Shown: piece by piece, positions 6,135 to 24,452 of the stretch
Position numbering within the stretch: position 1 is the stretch's first letter
How the letters are laid out: each line of letters opens with the position of its first letter
Assembly (NCBI RefSeq): GCF_006345805.1
Contig: NC_043002.1
Span: forward strand, 25,172,001 to 25,236,000
DNA: 64,000 bases
From: Octopus sinensis
Taxonomy: Eukaryota
Reading direction: 5' to 3'
Notes under the pieces: generated by a model
What the model was told of the DNA's origin: nothing
Database searches by the model: none
The model's input: the letters and a program-made list of their open reading frames with translations, nothing else
Position numbers and translations under genes: made by a program

Positions 6135-6179
6135 AGTCACGTGACTCAACCCGGAAGTTGTTGGTTAATAAAATGGCGG
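6135..6179 (+). promoter_or_regulatory. UBE2Z core promoter motifs: palindromic E-box/CLEAR-like AGTCACGTGACT, ETS CCGGAAGT, YY1/TISU-like AAAATGGCGG over the ATG
   Basis: Motifs at 6135-6146, 6151-6158 and 6170-6179, clustered within 45 bp of the start codon. Confidence 0.65.
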
Positions 6180-6321
6180 TTGCTAGCTCTGATGACTCTT
6201 CCAACTTTTTTGTGGCCGAAGACATGCTCGCACACTCCAACAGTTCGAACTGGGACCCCTGTCACAGCAAAGATTGGGATAAAGAGAAACCAACGCCCCA
6301 GTGTATTCTTCGGATAAAAAG
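6173..6321 (+). CDS. UBE2Z: Ubiquitin-conjugating enzyme E2 Z (USE1), exon 1 of 7
   Basis: ATG in aaaATGGCG context; MAVASSDD...WDPCHSKDWDKEKPTPQCILRIK resembles the UBE2Z N-terminal WDP...CLLRIKRD; donor AG|gtacga, phase 2. Confidence 0.9.
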
Positions 6322-6755
6322 GTACGACATACTTTTCGTCTTATTCCAGTCCCTCCTTGTCTTCCTCTCTCTCCCTAGACTCTCTTCCTTACTTTCGTTT
6401 TTACTGTTTATTTATATTTACCGAAAAAAGACGAAAGAATTGCGTCTAGCTTTTTTAAAGTATCGGATGATATGCCGTCTTAGTTGGATAATTGTTAAGT
6501 TTCCATCATCTCAAATTTATATAAATGTTACTAACCATTTGAGAACAGATTAACTAAATGGGGAAATATTGTTAAAATGAAATAATTTTTACAGTGATTG
6601 TTGATTTAGTTATAGAGAGGAATACTTTTTTTTTTATTACTTGCGTAGGTCAAACATATCTCACACACACATATATATTATTTTATATATTACATTTATT
6701 GTATATTTATATATTACAGTTATAATTTGTATAAATATAATTTGCATGTGTAATA

Positions 6756-6824
<69 letters not shown>

Positions 6825-7474
6825 CACACACACACACACACCACACACACACACACAGTGTATGTATATATATATATATATATAAATTTACTTGAAGTTG
6901 GCGATTTGTATATAGCCATTCAAATTTAAGAAATTAGCTTAAAATGTGCAATCTTCTATTCAGCTAAAATGTCATTTTTTTCTTTTTTCCTTACGTCACG
7001 CATACACACACACACTGTGTCGCAGTGTATTTATATGGTCTATTATTTACTCAGCATTTCTACTTAGTTGTTCTCACCTGTCAACAAAGAGTACTTGTTA
7101 TTGTTGCTAACCTAGTTTTTGTTTGTCTTCGCTACTCGAAACTAATTATCACGTACGCAAACGCACGCATGTGCGTGCGTGGGTGTATTTCTGTGTGTAT
7201 GTACGCATACAATAAGTATAAATATATAATTTACAAGTGCTATCACGAACCACATTAAGAGTATTCAATGTATATCGTAAAGTGAAAATTTTATTGTAGC
7301 ATAATATTATTTTATGGCGAACTTCTAGAATAGCCGTTCTTTGTAGTCCCATACTTCGTGGGAATGAAAAGTGCTAACGAAAGTGGTGGGGAGGAAGATA
7401 ATATTGGAATTTGGGGGAAAAAATTGTTCTGGATGGTAAATTTCAGTTGTATAAAACAAATAATTGAAATAATT

Positions 7475-8010
7475 CTTTCTACCACAGGCACTAGGCCTGA
7501 AATTTGGGGGAGGGATTAGTCGATTATATCGATCCCAGTGCTCGAGTGATATTTATTTTATCGACCCCAGAACGATGAACGGCAAAATCAACCTCAGCGG
7601 AACTTGGTTTGGGATCGTAAAAACGGACGAAATGCTGCAAAGCACTTTGGCGTGTCATCGATTCAGCCAGCTCGCTGCCTTAACAATGATAATCCTTTCA
7701 ACTATACATACACACAAGGCCTGAAATTTTGGAGGAGGAGGCTAGTCGATTACATCGACCCTAATGCGTAACTGGGACTTATTTCATCGACCCGAAAGTA
7801 TGAAAAACAAGGTCGAGCTCGGACCGTATAGACGGACGAAATGTCGCTAAGCATTTTGCCTGGCATGCTAACGATTCTACCAGCTCACCGCCTTAACAAT
7901 AATAATTTTTTTTTCTAATTTTGACACAAGGCCAACGATTGACCCTGTACTTTATTTACCGACCTCGGAAGGATGAAGTGCAGAGTTGACCTTAACGATA
8001 TTTGAACTCA
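7475..8010 (-). mobile_element. Head-to-tail array of tRNA-derived SINEs
   Basis: About three co-oriented copies of the atcgaccc...gatgaa-ggcaaa core ending ccagctc-ccgcct. Confidence 0.8.
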
Positions 8011-9069
8011 AAAAGGGGAAACTTTTTCCGTTTCCATGAGACCCGTGGGGACGGCTAGTCCAAACCTGCGCCAATTTTACTTATAATATACGCTTCAAAA
8101 TAGATCATTCTGGAATGCAAGCATGGTCCTTTTCGGGGCTTCGTAGAATGTGAGGAAATTATTTACTGACAGGTAACATGGTTGTTCAAAAGATTACAAC
8201 GAATGGCCTCCACTGATGACACCCAGGGGTCAAGTAATGGTATTAAACTAGAAGACGATTGTCTGTGTATTTGTGTATGAGTGTGTGTATGTATTTGTCT
8301 TGATTCACTCTTTTCTTGATAATAAATGTCTTATCACTTTGGAAACACGCAGACAAGACATTGTAAAATGTTGTTTGGGCTTGATGTTTTTTGTTTTTTT
8401 TGTCTTGCTTAAATAAAAATAAATAAATAAATTGTGTCAACCATGAATGTCCGTTTTCGTAGTGGTCGAGATCTTTTCGAAACAGCTGCCAAATCTCAAA
8501 TCACATCGTCCTCTCTTTAGAGTAGACAACTTGTTTAAATTTAAACAGGATTTCATAACAAATTACTTGCCAAACAAGTACCACTCAAAAATGTGTGTGT
8601 GTGTGTGTTCGGCAATAAGCACAAAAAAACAAAACAGAAGAGGGAATGCTTATGTACATAATGCGGATGTGTTATAGATAATAGAAAATTATCTGAATGG
8701 CATTCTTTATTCAAAATCACTACAGTTGTTTCCACACATTGTTACACCTGTAGTGCAGTGTAATCATTATCATCCATCAAAGGTGTAAGATGGGTTTCTT
8801 CTGTTGATTATTTTAAACAAGTCTTGTTAGCTCATACTGTCATTTTGCTCTGTAAGAGAATGAATACCCAAAGTAGTGTGCTATTTCCTGGAATTTGCAG
8901 ACAAAACTAAACCCATAGATATTAGTAACAGGACAAACACAAGTATCATCAAATTAAAGAAACAAGAAACAGATACAGGTATAATGATGTGTAGAAACAA
9001 TTGTGATTTTGAATAAAGATTGTCGTTGAATCTAGTCAAAATCGATCAACATGAATGGAAATTGTAGCT

Positions 9070-9457
9070 GTGATACCAGTGCCGGTGGCACATAAGAGAA
9101 CCATCCGAACATGGCCGTTGCCAGCGCCGCCCCGACTGGCTTCCGTGCCAGTGGCACGTAAAAAGCACCATCCGATCGTGGGCGTTGCCAGCCTCGCCTG
9201 GCCTCCGTGCCAGTGGCACGTAAAAAGCACCATCCGATCGTGGCTGTTTGCCAGCCTCGACTGGCACCTGTGCCGGTGGCACGTAAAAAGCACCCACTAC
9301 ACTCATGGAGTGGTTGGCATTAGGAAGGGCATCCAGCCGTAGAAACATTGCCAGATCAGACTGGGCCTGGTGCAGCCTTCTGGCTTCCCAGACCCCAGTT
9401 GCACCGTCCAACCCATGCCAGCATGGAAAGTGGACGCTAAACGATGATGATGATGAT
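9070..9457 (+). mobile_element. RTE 3'UTR fragment with diverged ~62-bp internal repeats
   Basis: Same sequence family as 1750-2065 and 3302-3792; (GAT)n tail. Confidence 0.85.
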
Positions 9458-10410
9458 ACTATGGAATTCCTGGTATATATATCCAGTAGCAGAAGCATTT
9501 GCACTGTATGATGAGATCTGGTAGCCAATAACTGGACAAGCTTTGCATAGCATTCTACAAGGTTTTACCCAAATCTTATTTAACTCATGAGTGACCATGG
9601 GATTGCACCTAGAAAGTTACCCTCCGAGGCACATGTTCAGGCAAGGTTGTTTATGGAAGACCAGCAGTTGCCATGCATACCAGCCTCCCCTATCCATGCC
9701 ACTGATGTTATCCTAGGGAAAGACAAAGGTCAATACAGCTTGACACTAATGTTGTCGCAACTCATTTCTACAGATGAGCGAACTGGAGCAATGTGAAATA
9801 AAGTTCCTTGCTCAAGAACATAACACACTGCCCAGAAGTATAAAAACTATGATCATAGTGGAAGAAAAGATGTACTAGAAGTGAAACTTATATAATTAAG
9901 GTTTTATATATCATTGTTTTAAAGTTCTTTTCCATGTTTGCATGGGTTAGCTGAAGTTTGAGGTAGATTTTCTACAGCTGGATGACCTTTCTGTGACCAA
10001 CCCTTACCTGTTTCAAAGCAAGGTAATATTTCCTCAAGGCCAGACATGTTTATGCTGAATAGTGTAAATGAATGATACTGCCTGAATGGCAGTGACGCTC
10101 ATTTACAACTATCACATGACGTCAAGACAAGAGAACACAAGCATACACTCTCTCTCTCTCCCTCTCACATATACATACACACACCACATATATGTCAGGC
10201 TTTTCTCAGTTTCTGTCAACCAAATCCACTCACAAGGTTTTGGTCACTTGGTTTTATTGTAGAAGACACTTGCCTAAGGTGCCAGTTAGTCAGATTGAAC
10301 CTAAAACCACATGGTAGGGAAACAAACTTCTTAATCACACAAATGAATGTATTATTTTACTACTTCCGTCTTTCTCTCAAATCATAACAATGCATGAGAG
10401 GGGAGAGATA

Positions 10411-10506
10411 GATCTCTGGTATCCTTTATTTGCATTCTTCCATTACATGCTCCCAGAGATTGATCTCTGGTATCCTTTATTTGCATTCTTCCATTACATG
10501 CTCCCA
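10411..10506. repeat. 51-bp-period tandem duplication
   Basis: gatctctggtatcctttatttgcattcttccattacatgctccca at 10411 and 10462. Confidence 0.9.
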
Positions 10507-11749
10507 AGGATACATTCTGTCCCCACATCATTTTATTTCTCCTCCACACCCCTGTACCCACCCATATAACATGGTTTAGCACTGCCTCTCTGCATCACCA
10601 CCCTTACCACTGACACTTTTTATTTCCTTCCTATAACTTAATTGCCCTTATCTTACTCAACTCTCCCCATTGTCCCATCATTCTCTAACCCTCTCTCTAC
10701 TCCTCACCCCAACTCTACTTTTCATTTTCCCTCTTATTAGTCCTTCCCTAACACTGTCTCTACCCTTACTCAACAATGAACCTTTAAACTATCACATGAC
10801 TTCAAGACAAGAGAACACAAGCATACACTCTCTCTCTTCTCTCTCTCCCTCTCACATATACACACACACACCACATATATGTCAGGCTTTTCTCAGTTTC
10901 TGTCAACCAAATCCAGGTAAAGGTTGGTCACAGAAAGGTCATCCAGCTGTAGAAAATCTACCTCAATAAACTTCAGCTAACCCATGCAAACATGGAAATG
11001 TTTCAGATCTTGACAAACTGTCCAACCCTGCTGTCATGGTAGATAGACTGGGTCCACCTCTTCAAATTACCCTATTATCATTACTACTCCTAACATTACT
11101 CTTCCTCTTCTCCCTATCCTCTACTCCCACTCCAACACTGACTCCTCTGTTACTCTCTCCATACCACCTTCTCAGAATGAATTTATCCCTTCCATCAAGG
11201 GGTAGTATTGTATTCTTTTGCTTTACAAGCTGCAAGGTGACCTCAACTGTGCAAGTGACACAAAAAGCATCCAGCAGACTTTCTAAGAGATTAGTAATCA
11301 ATTTGAGCAATGACAGTTGCATGGCTTAAGAGAGCTTGTTAGTGTTGTTGATGGCAAGGCAACCCCTATAGTGCTGGTGTTATGATTGATGCAGCCAGTA
11401 CACTCAATAAAGTGGTTGATGTTGGAAAGGGCATTCAGTCATGGAAACCATGCCAAGATTAAGGTGTGGCCCTCTGACTCATTTGAATCCTGTTGAACCA
11501 TCCTACCAGCATGGAAAACAGACATAAAAAGGATGATGATGTGTAGCCCTAAATATTTAATGTAGCAATTAAAGTAATTCACATTACCACATAAACCATA
11601 TATAACTGAAATTGAATTCTTTTGTGCATTTCACTTCTACTTATTGATTTTATTTGATTATTTATGTCTTTTTATGTTCTGAATTTAAAGCTTGCCAAAT
11701 CAGCTTTGCTTTTTGTCCTCTAACTTGCTTTAGAAATGAGATGTTTACA

Positions 11750-12120
11750 GACATTGCTGTTTGGTTAAGAAGCTTGCTTTCGCAGCCATGCGGTCTCAGG
11801 ATCATTCCACAATATGGCATCTTGTACAAGTGTCTTCTACAATAGGTCCAGCTGGCTAATGCATTGTGGATTTGGAAAATGGAAACTGTGTGGAAGCCCA
11901 TCATATGTATGTGTGTGCCTCTGTCTCCACCTGTAGTCGACTGATAGAGACTGGTGTTGGTTTGTTGACACTCCTGTAACTTTGCAGTTCAGTAAAAATG
12001 ACCATAAGAATAAGTGCGAGACTTAAAAAGAAGAAAAAGTACCAGGGTCGATTTGCTCAACTAAAACCCTTCTAGGTGGTGCCCTAGTATGGCCACAGTC
12101 TAATGTAAATAAAGAGAAAA
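11750..12120 (+). mobile_element. tRNA-derived SINE (diverged)
   Basis: Head gctgtttggttaagaagcttgctttc...; body similar to 5421-5560 and (inverted) 10200-10340. Confidence 0.6.
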
Positions 12121-14855
12121 TACTGTTTGTATGTTTGCGTGTGTGTTATACTGAACTGTTGGTTGTTCATCAAGCCCATATCAATTCTGATTGCACTGAC
12201 CAAAGATATTCCAGCTGGTCTTTTTTAAAGCCATATCTGGGACTACAATATCTACTATGTCATGTAACTCTCCTCTTTTCCTTTTCAAGACAGTAAAATT
12301 TGGTTTTAAAGAGGTGGACCCTGCTATTTCTAACAAGTTGAGTGACTGCGTGCATGTTACATATGTTTGAACAAACATATTGATGTGGAAAGCGAAAAAT
12401 GGGTTTTTATTATTAATATATTTAATGGTGAACTACTATGACCACCATCGACACCACCACTACTACCATCACTGCTTTTAAATCCTCACTTTGTTTACAT
12501 GTTTTGCTACAAAGACTTCCATCTTCTCACCACCTTTCTTTTCTGTTTTTTTGTTTTTCCTATCTCCCCTCTCCTTTCTCTCTTTCTCTTCCCATCCCAT
12601 ACTTCTCATTATTGAATATGTCATCATTTAATTTATTATGATCAATAATTGTGTGTGTATACGTGTGACAAGCAGTTGCCATGTCGGCTGTGTGGCCAAG
12701 CTGTCTGTTAACCAATTTCCTTGACCCGGTTTCATGAGAATCACTTCGGCTTATGATGTTAAATAATCTTTGAGACAGACACGAAAACCATATCTTATTT
12801 CCTTAATGTTTTTAAATCTGATCTGACATTTCTTGTCCTCACTCTCTGTCTGTGTATTAAAGATGCACAGTGCTATTTACAAAGGGATTAATGTCAACAT
12901 TCTAATAGGTAGAGAAATAATGGGTAACAGATTGTAGAGAGCTAAAATGGAGAAGGGTCAGGGACAAGGCGAGGTTTCTTTTAAATAATACCAGAATTGT
13001 TTTTGCTTTATGCTTTAAATGAACAGAGTAGTAGTATCATTCTTAAGCACATTGGTTCCATTGATGTGATAGTATAAGATAAGTGGTGTACGGAGAGATA
13101 TTAGTTACATCCACATACCTGCTGAAGCCATGCCACTATTAAAAAATCTTAGTCGTTTGACACACTGTTTCTCTGTCTCTTTATCTCTCGCAATAACATA
13201 TAACGCTTTTATTCTAGATCTTTATTAATAGCTGAAAAATTTTAAATTGCTGTCTATTTAAGGAAGTCATTTTTATTACTTCTCCTCCTTCTACAAAAGG
13301 ACAATCATTATAAATGCAGAATTTTCATCATACCTACAGTTACCGAATTACCAACATTTATGTTTGTCTTTTTTTCTTTTTTTTATTTTATACTGATTTT
13401 CTTTCATGCCAGAAAGGCTTAGGTTGGTTTTACAAATTTATCAGTTTGCATGAATTATTCAAACAACTGCTTCTTTCTGTGGCTAATTCACTGCTACTGT
13501 GAATTGGGGTGGAGGCAATGGTATGTATTCTTTCACTGAGTTGTTTGAAGCAAGAAATGTAAAAAAAAGTTTCTAATACAGCCTTTGCTCATATCATCTA
13601 CATCTGATGCCCTGCTTCTCTCTCTCGCTCTCTATAATGGCCTCTGCTCCTCAGACTGTCTGAGCTCATTCTGTCTCCACTCAAGGCATTCCTGAACCCG
13701 TCATTCCCCTCTACTCATCACTCTGTATACCCCACCACCACCACTACAAAGCCACACTCTAATCTTTTCTCCCTTCCCAGAACATTGGTCTTTTGGAATT
13801 CTTACCAAGCTCATGTTCATCTCACTGGTATTAAGTTACAAAGGTTAAAAAAGAAAATATCAATATCATCTCCTTAGTCTAGGAGGGACTGTGAAGGCAA
13901 TGTATATTGCTCCTTCCTCCAGACCCAGCAAAAAGACCAAAAAATATCATTAATCTTGGTTTCTGTTTTTCCCAAGAGAGATTAACCCACTTGAGACTTG
14001 CCATATTAAAATGTTTGCATTTCAACTGAAATTTCATCATTACATGAATACATTCGTCTTTTAGTTGTGTTTGAAGCACCAGCTTAACATAGCCATAAGT
14101 AAATAATGGTATAGCTGCTTTACGAAAGCAGGCAATTTTTTAAATTAGTTTGACAGTTAATTGAAACTAATTACTTTGATAGTTAATTGAAATACATGTA
14201 GTTTGTGTGTTGTTAAAAATATGGTCTTAGAAGGGTATTCACTTTCATTATCATTTCTTCTATCAATAAATCATCTCTTGGCTTTGTGCCTTTGCAGTCA
14301 TGTGGAATAAGTGATCCCTTTGTTGGAAAATAGGTTGGGATTGATGACAGGAAGGGCATCTAGCAGTAAACCAGTACCTCAGTAATAGACTTGTTTTACC
14401 ATTTGTTTAGACAATATTTTAAGAGGAGAGAAATATTTTGACAATGTATTAAAATTCAAAAAATCAGTTGTGACCAATGAAAACTCCTTTTATTATACAA
14501 GTTAGAAAAATTTTGTAAAGTCAGTAGTAATGTGAGTGGTCGTGACAGTCATGAGAGACATCATTAAGTCAAGGGTTATGGATAAAATTTTGTTGTGGAA
14601 GAAAAATGATTAGCTAATAATGTACATATGTGGGTGTTGGAATGTACAGTGATTGTTTGCATTGAATAAAGTGAGTGCATAATGAGAGAGAAAGAATTGC
14701 AGCAACAGGTTGTGAATTATGGCACTCAAATTGAATGATTAGTGTTTATAGAATCTAGGGTGCTGGTGTATAAAGAAGGTTTAACCCAATAAGTGCAGAG
14801 CTTTTCAATAGTTAACCAAAAGTTGGGATAATTGCAGCAGATGACATAAAGAATT

Positions 14856-15004
14856 TGATGGCATTCCCTACACTTTCCCAGTATTGAAAGCTGTAGTTTT
14901 ATTCCATTATACAGTAACAATTTAATTTCTTCACCTTTGTTCCCAATGGTGACAGTGGAGTCACAGTATCTTCAACAGTTAAAATTTTGCAGGTTAATAT
15001 ATAT
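14856..15004 (+). ncRNA. Box H/ACA snoRNA, diverged paralog of 16458-16611
   Basis: Aligns end to end with the 16458 copy; H box ACAGTA 14911-14916; terminal box is ATA; small deletion in hairpin 2 and pocket substitutions. Confidence 0.65.
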
Positions 15005-15492
15005 TTCTGAATTGTATCATTTCATTTTATTGACTTCACTTTTTAAAGGTATTATCTAACTCACCCTCTCTAGTCTTGTACAGCTTGCATTTAAAACTCT
15101 TAAAACTTCCACTATGTCTGATCTTTCCTGGTGACCACAACAGCTAAAACTATCTCTCACTTCATGGCCATGAATACTTTAACCCTGATTAATTGCTGGC
15201 TACACTCATAGAATACTGTATCTTTGTCTTTCAAGCCTGTACTGCATATCTGAGACACTGCTGCTGCTACTTCTACTACACACACATCCTAGACAGCTGG
15301 ACCATTACCTTATTGACAAAAGAAAATGCATTTCCCAATACCTTCAGACCTCTGACCCACAAACATACTCTCTTTCCCCTCTTTGTGTCTTCAGTTGCTA
15401 TGTCAGTAGCATCTACTTTCTTAAACTTATCAGCAGCTTACCTTTTCACCAAGGCCTACCAAACAAACATCTCTCTTCCTTTTTATCACCCA

Positions 15493-15719
15493 TTAACCCT
15501 TTAGTATTTAAACCGGCCATATCCGGCCAAAATAGTTAATCTGTTTTATGTTCAAACTGACCAGATCCAGGCTCTTGCACCTACCCTACAATGTTATTCT
15601 ACATTAAGCAATTACACCATCGAGATCTTGGAGATATGAGATAATGCATGATTAATTCAAATCAATGGGAATCAATAAGCATTACGTTTGATAGAATAAT
15701 CTGAACACTAAAGGGTTAA
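15493..15719. mobile_element. piggyBac-type MITE (TTAA target site, CCC...GGG termini)
   Basis: TTAA|ccctttagt ... actaaaggg|TTAA; related copies at 24453-24680 and (inverted) 35452-35681. Confidence 0.8.
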
Positions 15720-16457
15720 TGTTTCAACCCCCAGGCTCCACATTCACCACTTCGCTTGTGTCCCCCACCCTTCCTCAGACTTTCAGTACTCTGGAATGCC
15801 CCCTCTCCAATCAATTCTTTTTTTCTTCAGATGTTCAATCTGTGCATTAAGCATATTGATCTAACCAGTCTTGGATTGCCTTCAAAGGTCAGGAGTAAAC
15901 CATTTAAATTAACAGTCATATCAATGAAACAAATACTTTTTCTTCTAGTTTCTGTTTTTTACCTTAAATTATCAGTTCACTTCTATTGTACCATCACTTC
16001 TGAGTGACTCTTTATCCATATCTCCCTCCTTTTCAAGTCACCATTGAGTAACCCATGACCCAAGAGTTCATCTCTGCCAATGCCAAAATTCATCAATCCA
16101 TCTTTGACTTTAATCTCTTTGAAAAGGTTTGTTCCATCAAAGTTGACCTGGGGTTAAACAACAATAACCTCTTTGAATTCATTGAAGTCCACCATTATCA
16201 TCCCAACCCTGGTTTTGTTGTGTTTCATTCTTTTTCAGCTCTACTTTGAAGTCTTAGAACCATTAATACTTATAGCCACAGACATGGAATACTGCCACTG
16301 CTTCTTCCAAATCCACATTCTTCTTTGCCAAAATCCTCTCTTCACCTTTTACTCCTTATCTATTGTACCATCACTTTAGCTATCACCTCTTTCTATTAAT
16401 ATTCCATCCCACTATACCAACATTGTACAACTAATCATTATTTCTGCACTGTTAATT

Positions 16458-16611
16458 CGATGGCGTTCCCTACACTTTCCCAGTATTGAAAGCTGTAGTT
16501 TTAGTCCATCGTACAGTAACAAATTTAACTTCTTCACCTTTAACTGTCCTCAATGGTGACAGTGGGGTCACATTGCCTTCCACAGTTAAAGTTTTGCAGG
16601 TTAATACATAT
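16458..16611 (+). ncRNA. Box H/ACA snoRNA (intact copy) in UBE2Z intron 1
   Basis: Hairpin 1 cgatgg/ccatcg, ctaca/tgtag, ctttc/gaaag; H box ACAGTA 16513-16518; hairpin 2 ttaact/ggttaa, ctttaactgt/acagttaaag, caat-gtgac/gtcacattg; ACA 16606-16608; pocket CGTTCCC + TTAGT complementary to 28S ACUAA-UA-GGGAACG. Confidence 0.85.
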
Positions 16612-17013
16612 GTCTGTTTCAGTATGTTTTGACTGAAGAACCTGATTAGCTGGGGGTAACTATTTCTCAGCTAGGCTGACTGGGGTTAGAAATGTGAACT
16701 GTCACATGTAATCAATAATTAATTTAATATTTGTACTTATTCTTTATTGTTTCTTCTGCTAAACATGAGGGGAAATCCTAAAGAAAATACTTTCCCTATG
16801 GGTCCTTATGGTTCAGAAATAGATTAACGAGCTGTCAAAAGTTTCATTCCCAGCTATGGGTTAACTTAACCTGTAAAATACTGGGCTCAGTTGTCAATTT
16901 TAGAACTCTTCTGCATCAAGAAAATAAAGCCCTTGATCATCATCAATAAAAATTAATATTTGTGCAGTTTCATATAATAATAATAATGGATTTAATGTGT
17001 TTTATCTTTGCAG

Positions 17014-17086
17014 AGATATTATGACAATATATAATGAACCACCTCCAGGAATGTGTATAGTTCCAGACAAAGAAGATATTACAGAA
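17014..17086 (+). CDS. UBE2Z: UBE2Z exon 2
   Basis: ttgcag|A GAT ATT ATG...; (R)DIMTIYNEPPPGMCIVPDKEDITE; donor gtaagt. Confidence 0.95.
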
Positions 17087-17340
17087 GTAAGTGTCACTTC
17101 ATATTACATAGCTTTTGTTGTGGGTTTCCATTTGTCAAGAGCTGTGCAGCAATTGTTCCACCTCTCTGCACTCTTGAGCTCATATCCAGTTGAGGTCAAT
17201 TTTGCCTTTCTGAGTCGTTTAAAAAAAAAGTTTCTGTCCAGAGTAGTGAATTGAGTATAATTGTTAGAGAGTCAGACATTTGCTTTGTAATATCTGTTTT
17301 GGCTCAAGTTCAAATTCCATCCGATCACTGAAAAATATGC

Positions 17341-17562
17341 TTAACCCCTTCGTTACTGTATTTATTATGAGATGCTCTGTGTTTCTTTTAGTTACTTTAA
17401 ATGTAACAAAGAATTTAGTAAAATAACTTAGTTATCATTCAGCTAGTGTTAGGAACATAAATTGTGACTAAGGTTTGGTGGAAGATTTTAATTCAAAACT
17501 TTTGTAAACAAGACATTTGTACTCAGAGCCAGTTTCAGCCAGGTTGGTAACGAAAGTGTTAA
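17341..17562. mobile_element. Second TTAA-flanked piggyBac-type MITE family
   Basis: TTAA|ccccttcgttac ... gtaacgaaagtg|TTAA. Confidence 0.7.
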
Positions 17563-17719
17563 GTCAAGAATTATGACCAACGTATAGTAATATGAAAAAT
17601 CAATGGAAATACGGTTCTCTTGGTTCAATCAAAAGAGCAACAGTCACTACACTACCATTTCTTTGTAAAATTAGTTCTACATTGTTCTTACCATTCTCTG
17701 TTTCTGCTTGCTTCCACAG

Positions 17720-17907
17720 ATTCATGCATTAATTACTGGACCTTTTGATACGCCTTATGAAGGAGGTTTCTTCTACTTTCTAATTCGGTGTCCCCCAGAT
17801 TACCCCATCAGACCTCCACGAGTAAAACTAATGACTACTGGTGATGGTCGAGTCCGTTTTAACCCTAACCTTTACAGAAGTGGCAAGGTGTGTTTAAGTA
17901 TCATAGG
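17720..17907 (+). CDS. UBE2Z: UBE2Z exon 3 (UBC core, catalytic Cys at 17891-17893)
   Basis: [63 protein letters not shown]; NPN motif typical of UBE2Z; acceptor ccacag, donor gtaagt. Confidence 0.97.
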
Positions 17908-18614
17908 GTAAGTAAAGCTTTTTATTTTTTGAATACTTACAACACCAAACAGATTTCACTAACTTCCTTTACCTCATATCTCATGTCAATAAAATAATTA
18001 TGATAAATACACTCTCAGCAGACTTGTAGGAAGAGATGCCAGCAGACTTGTGCATAGTATTCTGTCACAAAACATTTTTTGATCAAACTGGAATGTCACA
18101 ACTAATGTCCGTACTTTGTATCCTATCACCTATTATTTGCTTTGTCCTTTGCCAATGCACTCATCTTTTTACTGAATCTAACTGTGAACAGATACCATGA
18201 GGAAGTACAGTTTAATAGATTTTATTAACCTGCTAAACGATGATGATGATGATGATGCATTATTGAACTCATCTTGCTTTGAGCAAAATTGGAAGATTAT
18301 CATTCTAAACTTACTTCACTTGAGCCCTTTACTCTCTTTGGAGCATTGGCCATCAATGACTTTCCTCCACTGTTCTCAATTCTGGGCTGTTTTTTTCTTC
18401 TCTCCAATTAGATCCCTGCTTTTTCAACTCTACCCCAGTATCCAGCTACTTTTAGGGGTCTTCTTAAGGCTATAATATTTTTTATTATTATGGATGAATT
18501 AAAGCAGTTTTATTATACTAAAATGGAAAGGCATTAAACTATATTGTTTTAATTTTGTAGAAAACTCCTGTTTTAATGAAATTGTGTTTAACTACTAAAC
18601 CACATGGGTTTTAC

Positions 18615-19516
18615 CTCATGTCTCACTATTTGCCGACGATGTCAAACTGGTCGCTCCTCGCGGTGATATAGAGGATCTTCGTCGATGCCTCCACCAAATT
18701 TGGAGGTGGTCTAACAAATGGGACCTGTGTCTGAACGTGTCAAAGTGCTGTCATCTGCCTGTTGGTTCTCCTCCTGCGACTCAACTTGATTTCGAGCCGG
18801 GTCGTCTGCTGCTGGAGAGGACCGATCAGGTAAAGGACCTGGATATCTTGGTGGATTCCTCCTTTTCGCCTTCGGCCCAGTGCGTCCATACTGCCAACAA
18901 AGCACACGGAATTCTGTTCTTGATTCGACGGTCATTCGGAATGCTCACAGCAGCCATATTCCTACCACTCTATGTCACGCTGGTGAGACCCATATTGGAA
19001 TACGGGATTCAAGCTTCTTCTCCTTATCTCCTCAAAGACATACAGCATCTCGAAAGAGTCCAGAAGCTGGCTACCCACATGGTTCATGGTCTCAAAAATT
19101 TGTCCTACGAAGAAAAGCTGAGGACGCTTGACCTTTATTCTCTAGAAAAACGCCGCGCCGTGGTGATTTCATTCTCGCCCACAACATCATAAGCGGAAAG
19201 TGTAACCTCTTGAAAGAGCTGTTCTTCATTCCTGCTCCAGAGCATCGGCTGCGGGGTCATTCCGAAAAGCTCTACCTGCGACGATTTCATCTCAATCGAA
19301 GAGAGGAGCTTTCTCCGTCCGGGTTGCGGATCCGTGGAACAAGCTGCCAGACGAGATGGTGAAGTTGCCAACGACCGCTTTGTTCAAAGCCTCCCTTGAC
19401 CTCAAGTGGCCTGAACTCTTTACATGAACACCACCCTGTACTTAACTCCATGTCCCCCTACATGGCCTTGCTATTTGCTTTTGAGCCAAATTAACTAACT
19501 AACTAACTAATTAACT
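18615..19516 (+). mobile_element. CR1-clade LINE, 5'-truncated, in UBE2Z intron 3
   Basis: Starts near the RT motif SLFADDVKL; frameshift near 19155; (TAAC)n tail; same young family as 2296-3142. Confidence 0.92.
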
Positions 19517-19678
19517 ATTTCAGGTTGATATTTTTATAGATGAAAACTCTTATTTTGTAAGTTGTGTAATTCCAAAGAAAAGTTTCCCTCCTCTACCCCA
19601 CTCCCACCCAACCATTATCCTTTACTCTTTTTATATAAAAAATTAAAATTATACCCTGCCATTTCTGCTTATTTATAG

Positions 19679-19790
19679 GACCTGGAGTGGCCCATCCTGG
19701 AGTCCTGCTCAGTCTCTTTCCAGCATTCTGATATCCATCCAGTCTTTAATGAACGACAAACCATATCACAATGAGCCGGGTTTTGAGCAG
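19679..19790 (+). CDS. UBE2Z: UBE2Z exon 4
   Basis: (G)[37 protein letters not shown]; acceptor ttatag, donor gtacgt; translated by hand, not in ORF track. Confidence 0.96.
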
Positions 19791-20049
19791 GTACGTATGA
19801 ATGTGTGTAAATGATACCTTGTTATAATTCTTCTCTCAAAACACCTGGAACATCTCAGCTTTAAAATATTCCTTAATGCACGTTATGTTACTTCTTAGCT
19901 ATCTCTCTGTTGCTTTCATTGCCATCATCATCATTTAACGTCTGTTTTCCATGCTGACATGGATTAGACAGTTTGACCAGAACTGGTGAGCCAGAGAGTT
20001 GCAGCCGGCTCCAGTCATCTATTTTGGCTTGGTTTCTACAACTGGATGC

Positions 20050-20170
20050 TCTTCCTGATGGCAACCACTTTACAGAGAGTACTGAGTGTCTTTTACATGT
20101 CATTAGCACATCTTCCTGATGGCAACCACTTTACAGAGAGTACTGAGTGTCTTTTACATGTCATTAGCAC
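20050..20170. repeat. 61-bp tandem duplication inside an RTE 3'UTR fragment
   Basis: tcttcctgatggcaaccactttacagagagtactgagtgtcttttacatgtcattagcaca x2. Confidence 0.9.
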
Positions 20171-21019
20171 AGGTGCCTTTTACATATCACCCAAGGAAAT
20201 TAAAAACAAAATATTTTCCATTTTATTTACTTTTTACTTGAATTTTTATATCCATTTTTCCATGCTAGCATGGGTTAGATGAGTACATTATTGAGTCAGT
20301 GTTTTTATAGCTTGATGCCTTTTCTGTCACTAACTCTTATCTTTTTTTAACAATAAATGAACATTTATTCCACTCATTTTTGAAGGTACTTACATATAAT
20401 TCATTTTGTAATTAAAATTCCAATATTTCATAATATATGTATTTTAACACATACTGTATAAAAACGAATAGTGCTAAAGGTAGTGTCAGATAAAAAACCT
20501 CTTTCCTGTCAATAAAATATGTCATAAATATTACTGCTTAAATGTTATTTCAGTTATTATCAAACTATATTATACTTATTTACTAAAGCATTGTATTTCT
20601 TGTAAGTGAGCAGCAGAAATTCATCATGTCACAAAATATTATTACTGACAGGGAAAATGTTTATGGCTGATAATGTACCACAAAAATAGGCCATGGAATT
20701 TCGGTTTAAAAACGCTAATTCTAATTCTGATCAAATGTACCGTGAGTCTTTCTAACCTTCATAGTTCAATAATGTTATACCACTATAATTTCCTCTCCCC
20801 AATGTGTTTCCTTTACCTTTGTAGCAGTTTACAATGCTGTTACTATGCCAGTCATTGGGCATGACACCTTCCTCTAATTTTGGTGAGTAGCCTGTATCCT
20901 ACCTCACCAGACATTTAATATCTTTCTTTAGAACCATATTTTTGGGGTCATAATGTTTGTTTTAATAAAATTTTGTTAATCTCTTAAGAGTTGCCTAATC
21001 TTTCTGTTACAGTGCGTCT

Positions 21020-21162
21020 TTCATTAGGCTGTGCTTAGCTTTTCACATTAAGGCTTCTCGTTGCAGCTGTACCTAGTTCTTTTCATTAAGGCTGTGCCTA
21101 ACCCCTCTTGTTAAAGCTGTACCTAGCTCCTCTCATTAAGGCTATGTCCAGCCCTTCTCATT
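21020..21162. repeat. Degenerate minisatellite
   Basis: Repeated tcattaaggctgt-cctagc units. Confidence 0.6.
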
Positions 21163-21330
21163 TGACCCTGATATGAACAACAAACTGAATCCTGTTTTGT
21201 TGTTTAATATTTGTGTTGCTCTGTTTGTCTGGTGTAGCACTGTGACCTCTAATCATGTTATTTCTCCATATCTTTAGGTTTTAGAGACGATACACTTCCA
21301 GTGAATTGTTTCTATTTTTCTGTAAAACAG

Positions 21331-21443
21331 GAGCGTAATGTTGGTGATGCTAAACGGTATAATGATGTGATACAGCACGAGTCTCTACGGGTTGCAGTTT
21401 GTGATATGTTGGAAGAACGATGTACCTGTCCTCAAGCACTTCG
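21331..21443 (+). CDS. UBE2Z: UBE2Z exon 5
   Basis: [37 protein letters not shown](R); acceptor aaacag, donor gtattg. Confidence 0.93.
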
Positions 21444-23902
21444 GTATTGTTGCTGTTGTTATTATTATTGCTATTTTCCCAAACACTTCTTTTACAGTGT
21501 GTGTATGCTGTATTATTATTATCATTAACAGTAGTAGCTGAAAGGAAGAGCTATATTGATAAAGTATCAGTCAAAATGCTTTCTGCCCTTTACATCCTGA
21601 GTTCGAATCCTACTGAAGATGGCTGCTTTTGTCCTTCCAGGATCAATAAAATATAATACCAGTCAAGTACTGGGGTTGATATAACTGACTATTCCATCTC
21701 TCCTCTCAATTTCTGGGCTTGTGCCCATCTAGAAAATCATCATCACTATGATTATTATTTTGGGGAGTGGAGTGGATTGGTAGAATCATCAGAGCATCAG
21801 AAAAAATGCTTTGTAGTATTTGTTCTGAGTTCAAATCCTGTTCTAGTCAACTTTACCTTTCATCTTCTTAGAATTGATGATATATAGTACCAATTAGGTA
21901 CTAGGATCAATGATATTGACTAATCTCCTCCACCAAAATTTCAGGCTTTTTGCCTATGTTACGGAGTCAAAGTCCATTTATAACAAGTTTTGATTTTTGG
22001 TTGTAGTGATTTCACTTACAACTCTAAATATCATCAATGTTTTTCATGCTGTAGTGGCTTACATGACTCTGCTATACAGCATAACATGACCTGTTTCATT
22101 CTTTTGTCGTCTCATTTGTGAAACACAACATCCTGAGATCTGACTTCACATGTTCCTTTATATTTCCTATTAAACAGCTTTTTGTAATGTAGCCCTCATT
22201 GTCCATTCACAACATATGTCCATAGTAGAGTAGTCATTTCTCTTGCACTTATCTTTAATTGCAGCTGCTGTCAATATGGAAAGCAGAACATTGCCAGAGT
22301 CATGAATGTTGGTTATAATGCCTCATATTTGTTCTGACTCTCTGCACTAAGGTTAGGATCTCTTATGAGCCCTGGAATTTAACCAGGTTTCCATGTGGTA
22401 TAAGTAATTCAAACTACAATACTCCTTCCTGAATAGGATGTCAGTCCATCGCAGGTTTAACTTCCAGCTGTTGCTGGGACTTTTTTTACAGCTAAGTGGA
22501 CTGGGGCAAGCAACATGAAGTATAGTGTTTTGGTCAAGAACACAATGCACTGCCTAGTGCAGGAATCGAAACTACAATCTTACAATAGTGACTGCAACAC
22601 TTTAACCACTGGGTCACTAGCCCTCACCCATCAAGGTTAGCTTTACCTTTGATATTTTAGGGATCAATAAAAAGAAAATACCAATCTTGGTCAATGAATT
22701 AATGGAACTGTTAAAAAGTTTGGTAATGATGGTGTTTTGTGGTATTGATCCCAGTTCTTTGCATTCTGACCTGGTGCCAAATTATATTGGCTTAAAGTCA
22801 GCAACCTTTTCTTTGGATAAATATGGGTGGTAGGTAGAGATGAGATTTGTATGCATAGGCTACTGTTAGTCTTTCTCAAAAACTCTTACCCTAACCTGCA
22901 CATATATGTACAGATGCATGATCAGCATTGACCGACAGAAACCTTAGACAGTCAGTATGGTAGTAATATATTAGCACTGACTAAATTTGATTTTAAGGTA
23001 AATATTAGACTTATATAATGTTAACCTACATGAAAGATAGAACTTTTTGCTTGTTAATGACATTGGTCAATAAAGCAGAGATAAGTGGTGGTGATGGTGG
23101 TGGTGTAAATAGTGGTTGAAAAAGAGCCTTCCTTGTATGCCAAGACGGAAAGATCATGTTGGATAGAAAAATACACGGAGAGAAATGAAGTGAGGTCTCA
23201 GGATGCTGGTCATTACAGTCGTGCAGCCACATAATTTAGAAGGATTAAAGATGTCAGCATTAAAAAATCTCACATAAAGAAGTATAAGATACCAAAACAG
23301 TATGTTGGCAGAATCATGAGAGCATCAGATATAATTCACACACTGTTTTTGTTTCAAATCTTGGCAGAACAATTATAGTGTTGGATGAGAGGCTTGCTGT
23401 ATCTGTTCCATCACTTGGTATTGTTACAACACTGGTGCCAAGCTGTATCAGATCCAAAGTAGCAGCCTTTTTCTTGGACAGCATTGGTAATGTAGAGAGG
23501 GAAGACTTTCATGCATAGGTTGGCTGCCAGTCACCATTGCCATTATCCAATGTCTTTTCTTCCATGCTGGCATGGATCAAACAGCTTGGCATGAGTAGAC
23601 AAGCCAGAGGATTGTGCCAGGCTCCAATGTCTGCTTGGCATGGTTTCTACAATCGGATGCCCTTTATAACACCAACCACATCACAGAATGTACCAGTTCC
23701 TTTTTTTCATGGTACCAATCCAGTTTTCAACAAAAATCTTGTGCAGATACATGGCCACTTTGACCAGCAGGGGCTTGATATGAGATATCAATGACTTAGT
23801 TTGGTTTGTATTGAGGACAGATGGGTTCTAATGTGGGTGATATTCATTAAGTGACTATTTTTTTTACCTCAACTAATTCATGATTTACTTTCTTGTCTTT
23901 AG

Positions 23903-23993
23903 AGAAGTGATGGAAAAGTCCTTCCCCACGTATTATGATTATTATGAATCTGTATGTAAAGCCAACCTCATGAAGCAGGGGCAGACAATGTTG
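23903..23993 (+). CDS. UBE2Z: UBE2Z exon 6
   Basis: EVMEKSFPTYYDYYESVCKANLMKQGQTML; acceptor ctttag, donor gtaagt. Confidence 0.95.
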
Positions 23994-24452
23994 GTAAGTA
24001 CTGCTGTTTTTACTGACATCAACCTGCAGATCATGCAGTCTCCTGTCTTTACTGCAACACCAGCCAGTCTAGGTTCATGATGACAATTAAAACAATGGAC
24101 GTTGAAATAAAGCAGAGCATGAAGGAAGCAATGCTATTTAAGTACAGATACATTGGTCAATTAAACCAACAGTAACCTTGATGGTGTTGGGTTAAGTTCT
24201 ATTGAAACATTACAATAGTGTGAAGTAAGCTAATCAAGCATTACAGAATATGGGTTCCCTTATACTTCACTGCAGGATATGATTTAAGAGTGATTTAGTT
24301 GCCATTTCTAACACATCCTACGGTCACAATAGACACTTTCTCATTACCTCACATGTGCTTTGTTGTTTTTGTTATATTTAACCTCAAGTGAATCCTGGCT
24401 TAAGCAGATCTTTGACCAAAGATGTTCAAGCTGTGACAATCCCAGAATCTCT

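What the first reader, a model, noticed from the sequence alone, without database searches (positions are those of the whole stretch)
14856..16611. Tandem pair of intronic H/ACA snoRNAs in UBE2Z, one predicted to target the 28S peptidyl-transferase region
Seen: two copies of about 150 nt lie 1.6 kb apart. Their similarity stops at the ends of a hairpin-H box-hairpin-ACA fold. The 5' pocket of the 16458 copy (CGTTCCC / TTAGT) gives 7+5 Watson-Crick pairs around UA in conserved 28S CCCACUAA-U-AGGGAACGUG. By my count that U equals yeast 25S U2935, between the known Psi2923 and Psi2944, and I do not recall it as modified in yeast or human. Drosophila Psi28S-3316 is a candidate homolog to test. The 14856 copy has altered pocket bases (CATTCCC / TTATT), an ATA box and a stem deletion, suggesting decay or retargeting. 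The 3' pocket (TCTTCAC / TTTTGCA) is kept in both copies, target unassigned. I do not know UBE2Z as a snoRNA host, and several snoRNAs in one intron is unlike the vertebrate one-per-intron pattern.
Basis: partly seen in the sequence, partly recalled or inferred. Interest (0 to 1): 0.75.

Follow-up and report, generated by a model that had tools for sequence, protein, structure and literature searches.

The report
Duplicated U6-modifying guide RNA SNORA79
Both copies match the known guide RNA SNORA79 (ACA65) and are predicted to mark two uridines of the spliceosomal U6 RNA; the proposed ribosomal target is a cytidine in this genome, so this is likely an ordinary duplicated guide, with one copy likely decaying and one retroposed copy elsewhere.

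Summary
The two ~150-nt H/ACA-type copies are real and lie in one 10.7-kb intron (intron 1) of UBE2Z, but the proposed target is wrong. Both copies match Rfam SNORA79/ACA65: 16458-16611 at 60.5 bits (cut-off 55) and 14856-15004 at 44.7 bits. This is the vertebrate guide for U6 Psi31 and Psi86. In this genome's own 28S the proposed uridine is C. Among 2095 uridines of the genome's own rRNAs and major snRNAs, each pocket has one strict-geometry hit, both in U6: U31 (6+7 Watson-Crick pairs, 14 nt from box H) and U85/U86 (6+5 pairs). The guide base facing U85 is U in 4 of 4 copies, so the 3' pocket is predicted to shift to Psi85 or to work weakly. The 14856 copy looks decayed: two pocket mismatches, ATA box, 5-nt stem deletion, 0 of 3 CpGs kept. 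Two more copies exist elsewhere. One, in a cohesin STAG intron, is a retrocopy with mature ends, an A-rich tail and a 16-nt target-site duplication, which indirectly shows that the RNA is made. Verdict: a new member of a known family, of modest interest.

The parts
16458..16611 (+). Copy B: intact SNORA79/ACA65-family H/ACA RNA (5' end may lie about 2 nt upstream)
   Evidence: Rfam RF00600 60.5 bits, cut-off 55; fold; the retrocopy insert begins 2 nt upstream of this start
16464..16505 (+). 5' pocket of B: CGUUCC (16464-16469) and UUUUAGU (16499-16505), predicted guide for U6 U31
   Evidence: 6+7 Watson-Crick pairs, 14 nt to box H, only strict hit among 2095 U; 0 of 300 shuffles reach 13 pairs
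16480..16487 (+). 5' apical loop CCAGUAUU, whose AG aligns to the AG of the Rfam consensus loop (possible degenerate CAB box)
   Evidence: Alignment, loop; CAB consensus recalled; inconclusive
16513..16518 (+). Box H (ACAGUA) of B
   Evidence: Sequence; identical in 4 of 4 copies
16532..16597 (+). 3' pocket of B: CUUCAC (16532-16537) and UUUUGC (16592-16597), predicted guide for U6 U85/U86
   Evidence: 6+5 Watson-Crick pairs with a U-U mismatch at U85; only strict hit; 3 of 300 shuffles reach 11 pairs
16606..16608 (+). ACA box of B, 3 nt from the predicted 3' end
   Evidence: Sequence; the C19 retrocopy switches to its A-rich tail 3 nt after ACA
14856..15004 (+). Copy A: likely decaying paralog (two 5'-pocket mismatches to U6, ATA at 14999-15001, 5-nt stem deletion, all three CpGs lost)
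   Evidence: Rfam 44.7 bits, below cut-off
6322..17013 (+). UBE2Z intron 1 (10,692 nt) holding both copies in sense orientation
   Evidence: GT..AG joint in contigs of 3 of 4 runs guessed to be RNA; open frame across exons 1-3
6173..6321 (+). UBE2Z exon 1, coding part
17014..17086 (+). UBE2Z exon 2
17720..17908 (+). UBE2Z exon 3
   Evidence: Pfam UQ_con; best PDB match human UBE2Z
15493..15716 (.). High-copy 224-nt MITE-like insertion between the two copies; not part of the RNA genes
   Evidence: Inverted ends; contigs of X16 and X18 skip it

Best explanation
Copy B (16458-16611) is a SNORA79/ACA65-family H/ACA RNA that is likely released from UBE2Z intron 1 and is predicted to guide pseudouridylation of U6 snRNA at U31 and, less surely, at U85 or U86, while copy A (14856-15004) is likely a decaying duplicate. 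Shown: family match, fold, boxes, intronic sense position, and pairing of both pockets to this genome's own U6. [quoted passage not shown] Predicted: because the guide base opposite U85 is U, three U6 bases (U85 U86 C87) stay unpaired and the 5'-most uridine, U85, would be modified. The family also spreads: a retroposed copy of B sits in a STAG intron, and a fourth copy sits at the 5' end of an LBR-like gene.
For: Rfam SNORA79 is the only family over its cut-off in the 64 kb and the only convincing one among 4 matches at E<=5 in 9000-24000. [quoted passage not shown] Strict-geometry scan of own 18S, 5.8S, 28S, U1, U2, U4, U5, U6 (2095 U): one hit per pocket, both in U6; shuffles reach these scores 0 of 300 and 3 of 300 times. 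The U31 region is intact in 7 of 8 and the U85/86 region in 8 of 8 U6 loci fetched. B, C19 and C11 keep both pockets, both boxes and 3 of 3 CpGs (local CpG observed/expected 0.20, 0.49, 0.13), A keeps 0 of 3 (Fisher p 0.005, copies not independent). The C19 copy is the mature body plus a 20-nt tail (15 A) between 16-nt duplications; 2 other copies of the flanking repeat are empty at that site. The 5'-most unpaired uridine rule comes from PMC6049503 (sections 7 and 9).
Against: No small-RNA reads or Psi map were available; the runs laid were contigs only. A looser scan allowing G-U pairs and stem invasion ties U6-U31 with a 28S site (U339 of the match, 13 nt spacing) and ranks U5-U58 and 5.8S-U81 above U6 for the 3' pocket. 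The U-U mismatch next to the target could cripple the 3' pocket (PMC6800473 abstract: changes near the target impair activity). Minor snRNAs (U11, U12, U4atac, U6atac) and mRNAs were not scanned. Covariation among the 4 copies is not above shuffles (226 of 500). The assembly's rDNA copies are few (only 4 candidates scored) and might not be the main functional type.
Confidence: 0.85

Rival explanations
1. One reading: the 5' pocket guides a new pseudouridine in the 28S peptidyl-transferase region.
For: The left arm GGGAACG and the upstream ACUAA are present in the genome's 28S, so flanking complementarity exists.
Against: The would-be target is C in three C18 LSU copies and in the divergent LSU on C6303; the U version has 0 exact matches genome-wide; spacing would be 12 nt; U6-U31 gives 13 pairs at 14 nt.
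Confidence: 0.02
2. Only the 5' pocket works; the 3' pocket is inactive, or still modifies U86 as in vertebrates despite the mismatch.
For: U-U mismatch next to the target. PMC6049503 says the adjacent pair is dispensable with extensive pairing but needed near 8 pairs; here there are 11. An alternative 15-nt register gives G-U85 plus 3 pairs in C11 and A-U85 plus 3 pairs in A.
Against: The 3' pocket bases are unchanged in 4 of 4 copies while the apical part of that hairpin diverges, so it seems to be under selection; the 5'-most unpaired U rule predicts U85.
Confidence: 0.45
3. Copy A is still assembled, so trimming of intron 1 yields a 1,756-nt H/ACA-capped long RNA (14856-16611) like human SLERT, not only free guides.
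For: Two H/ACA RNAs in one intron can give such RNAs (PMC11028025 passages). A keeps its 5' hairpin (z -2.42), box H and 3' pocket. AUA can replace ACA in some guides (recalled). Copy A sequence is also covered by contigs of organisms C, D and E.
Against: A's 3' hairpin does not fold better than shuffles (z +0.60); all its CpGs decayed, and organism D shows a different decay (CA instead of TG) at 14856-14857 in one contig; a MITE that some runs lack sits in the spacer.
Confidence: 0.1
4. All copies are dead pseudogenes or a SINE-like repeat with no function.
For: One copy is a retroposon; no direct expression data.
Against: Only 4 places found; pockets, boxes and CpGs are kept in 3 copies; the retrocopy body differs from B at 4 of 154 sites against 3 of 16 between its target-site duplications (p 0.019).
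Confidence: 0.03

Closest known systems
SNORA79 / ACA65 (Rfam RF00600), vertebrate H/ACA scaRNA for U6 Psi31 and Psi86
   Same: Fold, boxes, both antisense elements and both U6 target regions; intronic, sense orientation.
   Different: Host is UBE2Z, not GTF2A1; longer 3' hairpin; U instead of the consensus A facing U6 U85, giving 6+5 pairs instead of the 5+7 listed for human; four copies in three host loci.
Type-1 snoRNA retroposons (snoRT/scaRT) of mammals, PMC1687206
   Same: The C19 copy has the mature 5' end, a short A-rich tail, a 16-nt target-site duplication (7-19 in mammals), sense orientation in an intron, and sits inside another mobile element.
   Different: Found in an invertebrate genome; the passages read describe mammalian cases.
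H/ACA sno-lncRNA SLERT (SNORA5A/SNORA5C)
   Same: Two related H/ACA RNAs within one spliced-out segment.
   Different: Here a constitutive intron, the upstream copy looks decayed, and no such RNA has been seen.
Drosophila pugU6-40 scaRNA (PMC3884663)
   Same: Invertebrate intronic H/ACA RNA that modifies U6.
   Different: Different family and position (Psi40).

Membership tests
Box H/ACA guide RNA | Hairpin-hinge-hairpin-tail fold with internal pockets | tested here: met
   B. A: 5' hairpin met, 3' hairpin not above shuffles.
Box H/ACA guide RNA | Box H (ANANNA) and ACA box 3 nt from the 3' end | tested here: met
   B, C19, C11: ACAGUA and ACA+3 nt; A has AUA. The retrocopy tail starts 3 nt after ACA.
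Box H/ACA guide RNA | Pocket about 14 nt from its box with at least 8 guide-substrate pairs | tested here: met
   14 nt for both pockets; 13 and 11 pairs with own U6; 8-pair minimum from PMC6049503.
Box H/ACA guide RNA | Stable mature RNA bound by dyskerin | not testable with these tools
   Only contigs available; the retrocopy is indirect evidence of a mature RNA.
SNORA79/ACA65 (RF00600) | Covariance-model score over the gathering cut-off (55 bits) | tested here: met
   B 60.5, C19 58.3. A 44.7 is below; C11 did not reach the cut-off.
SNORA79/ACA65 (RF00600) | 5' pocket complementary to U6 around U31 | tested here: met
   6+7 Watson-Crick pairs in B, C19, C11; 4+5 contiguous with two mismatches in A.
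SNORA79/ACA65 (RF00600) | 3' pocket positioning U6 U86 | tested here: inconclusive
   Right region, 6+5 pairs, but U-U at U85 makes U85 the predicted target.
scaRNA | CAB box in an apical loop and Cajal-body location | tested here: inconclusive
   5' loop CCAG keeps the AG of the Rfam consensus loop; 3' loop AGUGGG has no clear motif; consensus recalled; location untestable here.
Type-1 snoRNA retroposon (C19 copy) | Mature snoRNA, A-rich tail, target-site duplication, empty site | tested here: met
   176-nt insert, 20-nt tail with 15 A, 16-nt duplication, 2 empty sites in other copies of the flanking repeat.
28S peptidyl-transferase-region guide | Uridine at the target position of the organism's own 28S | tested here: not met
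   C at that position; pattern absent.
H/ACA sno-lncRNA (SLERT-like) | Stable long RNA ended by two functional H/ACA RNAs | not testable with these tools
   Contigs cannot show RNA ends.

The most novel reading that the evidence does not exclude
This lineage's ACA65 has moved its second U6 modification by one nucleotide, to Psi85 instead of the vertebrate Psi86, through a single A-to-U change fixed in all four copies, and the guide is spreading by retroposition into new host genes in an invertebrate, where the retrocopy is kept by selection.
Probability: 0.35. Interest if true: 0.45.

Novelty: new member of a known kind. Interest (0 to 1): 0.3.

Why it matters
It corrects the target: no new ribosomal modification is implied. 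It places a U6 Psi31 guide, described from vertebrates in the papers read, in an invertebrate with a different host gene, which suggests that the guide is old while its host is not fixed. The 3' pocket offers a natural test of the rule that the 5'-most unpaired uridine is modified. The STAG-intron copy is a clean snoRNA retroposon with a known empty site outside mammals, and it marks the mature RNA ends without any small-RNA data.

Tried and rejected
28S target: rejected. High-copy repeat: rejected, 4 places. A hidden exon between the copies: no joint shown among the best-supported ones, and exon 1 joins exon 2 directly (321 weaker joints were not shown). Genome-wide Rfam RF00600 search returned nothing, including the window's own copy, so it was uninformative. 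Covariation among 4 copies: no signal. Cofolding the hairpin with U6 did not model pocket pairing. No RNA holder was listed for the stretch, and contig cover over the copies is not evidence on expression. LBR Tudor search found nothing, so the first exons of the C11 host were not identified. Papers PMC8522698, PMC6298559 and PMC8763049 had no SNORA79/ACA65 mention in the terms searched. Earlier-finding look-ups by place, sequence and words were empty. Supplements were read only for PMC6984369; others, such as the giant squid annotation (PMC6962438, 34 snoRNA families), may already list SNORA79 in cephalopods.

Full report
Observation. The two copies are at the stated places, 1602 nt apart, with 134 matches, 15 mismatches and 5 gap columns, and unrelated 80-nt flanks. 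Copy B (16458-16611) folds as hairpin, box H (ACAGUA), hairpin, ACA plus 3 nt, with z -4.98 and -2.29 for the two halves. Copy A (14856-15004) has z -2.42 and +0.60. The host is UBE2Z: exon 3 matches human UBE2Z best, E 5.7e-34 against 2.6e-19 for the next family, BIRC6. Contigs from 3 of 4 runs guessed to be RNA join exon 1 to exon 2 across a GT..AG intron of 10,692 nt, so both copies share intron 1.

Family. The only Rfam match over its cut-off in the window is SNORA79 (RF00600) at copy B, 60.5 bits against 55. Copy A matches the same family at 44.7 bits, E 6.9e-05; the other 2 of 4 matches at E<=5 in 9000-24000 are weak and elsewhere. SNORA79 is ACA65, listed as the guide for U6 Psi31 and Psi86 with human host GTF2A1 (PMC1636440, table passage; PMC7960923, table passage). 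Human ACA65 co-precipitates with WDR79 (PMC3884663, passages). A supplement row of PMC6984369 calls it a scaRNA with CAB boxes and reports Psi86 guide activity verified in yeast. Human U6 Psi31, Psi40 and Psi86 were detected by nanopore (PMC12775064, passage).

Target. I fetched the genome's own U6, U1, U2, U4, U5, 18S, 5.8S and 28S. The LSU copies read C at the proposed uridine in L020, L021 and the L023 piece, and also in a divergent LSU on another contig. With pockets fixed by the predicted fold, both 14 nt from their box, a Watson-Crick scan of 2095 uridines gave one hit per pocket. The 5' pocket pairs 6+7 around U6 U31; 0 of 300 shuffled substrate sets reach 13 pairs. The 3' pocket pairs 6+5 around U6 U85-U86-C87; 3 of 300 reach 11. 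Against this, a looser scan with G-U pairs and shifted registers ties U31 with one 28S site and puts U5-U58 and 5.8S-U81 above U6 for the 3' pocket. That both pockets point to the same 107-nt RNA at the family's known positions settles the choice in my view. Only one copy of each substrate was scanned, and minor snRNAs and mRNAs were not.

The 3' pocket. The Rfam consensus has a weakly conserved A facing U85. All four copies here have U, so U85 is unpaired. In yeast, pockets accept several unpaired bases and modify the 5'-most unpaired uridine (PMC6049503, abstract and sections 7 and 9). That predicts Psi85. Changes next to the target can also impair activity (PMC6800473, abstract), and 13-nt spacers are frequent but one engineered case abolished activity (PMC8763049, one passage). 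So shift, unchanged target and weak pocket all remain open; I put the shift at about 0.35-0.4.

Copy A. It has two mismatches to U6 in the 5' pocket, AUA for ACA, and a 5-nt deletion in the 3' upper stem. It has lost 3 of 3 CpGs, while B, C19 and C11 keep 3 of 3 where CpG observed/expected is 0.20, 0.49 and 0.13. One contig of organism D shows a different change at the first CpG and one of X16 shows a further pocket change. This fits neutral decay. Two H/ACA RNAs in one intron can make a sno-lncRNA such as SLERT (PMC11028025, passages), which here would be 1,756 nt; nothing seen supports it, and a MITE in the spacer is absent from contigs of 2 of 4 runs laid.

Other copies. Two DNA searches each gave the same four places. 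The C19 copy (150 of 154 identical to B, Rfam 58.3 bits) lies in sense orientation between exons of a cohesin STAG gene. It is a 176-nt insert made of 2 nt, the 154-nt body and a 20-nt tail with 15 A, between 16-nt duplications; two other copies of the flanking repeat carry that 16-mer once and no insert. This matches type-1 snoRNA retroposons (PMC1687206, passages). Its tail starts 3 nt after ACA, the mature H/ACA end, which indirectly shows that a mature RNA of B's sequence existed. The body has 4 of 154 differences from B while the two duplications differ at 3 of 16 (p 0.019), a weak hint of selection. The C11 copy (138 matches, 15 mismatches to B) keeps pockets and boxes and lies in sense orientation upstream of exons of an ERG4/ERG24-family, LBR-like gene. 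That it is intronic is inferred from a CCAAT-box region, a donor-like site and CpG loss upstream, not from RNA. A and C11 share about 60 nt of 3' flank (p 0.002), so A derives from the C11 lineage or the reverse, not simply from B next door.

Comparison with print. Searches: SNORA79 alone, 33 papers, 32 listed; ACA65 with U6, 4; snoRNA with octopus, 58, 25 listed; U6 with psi31/85/86, 3 listed, none with psi85; UBE2Z with snoRNA, 4. From titles and abstract starts none describes an invertebrate SNORA79 or UBE2Z as a host. The library lacks most subscription papers, and since B passes the Rfam cut-off, automatic annotation has probably already labelled it (inference). Movement of snoRNAs between introns and genes is well documented (PMC6984369, passages).

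Verdict. Real feature, known family, wrong first target. New member of a known kind; interest 0.3. The testable extras are the predicted Psi85 shift and the invertebrate retrocopy.

Noticed in passing
L010:1481-1656 (G000:C19, about 16377715-16377890): Type-1 snoRNA retrocopy with A-rich tail and 16-nt target-site duplication, inserted in a dispersed repeat inside a STAG intron; the repeat's fragments resemble a retrotransposon gag region (recalled, not tested).
   Followed up: yes
L011:1503-1715 (G000:C11) and window 14856-15062: Copy A and the C11 copy share about 60 nt of 3' flank, whereas A and B do not, so the two UBE2Z copies are not a simple tandem duplication.
   Followed up: partly
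window 15493-15716: 224-nt MITE-like element with inverted ends at TTAA-like sites, very high copy, absent from contigs of runs X16 and X18: a recent or polymorphic insertion.
   Followed up: partly
L019 (G000:C6303:415486-418798): A compact, 40% GC eukaryotic LSU rRNA only 70-87% identical in pieces to the C18 copies; likely a co-sequenced other organism.
   Followed up: no
   Followed up: partly
G000:C1:141926002-141953129: Tandem array of about 20 U6 genes spaced 1.1-2.5 kb apart.
   Followed up: no
window 20050-20171, 10404-10505, 10107-10915: Exact or near-exact short tandem duplications (61 nt x2, 51 nt x2) and a 680-nt-spaced duplicate in UBE2Z introns.
   Followed up: no
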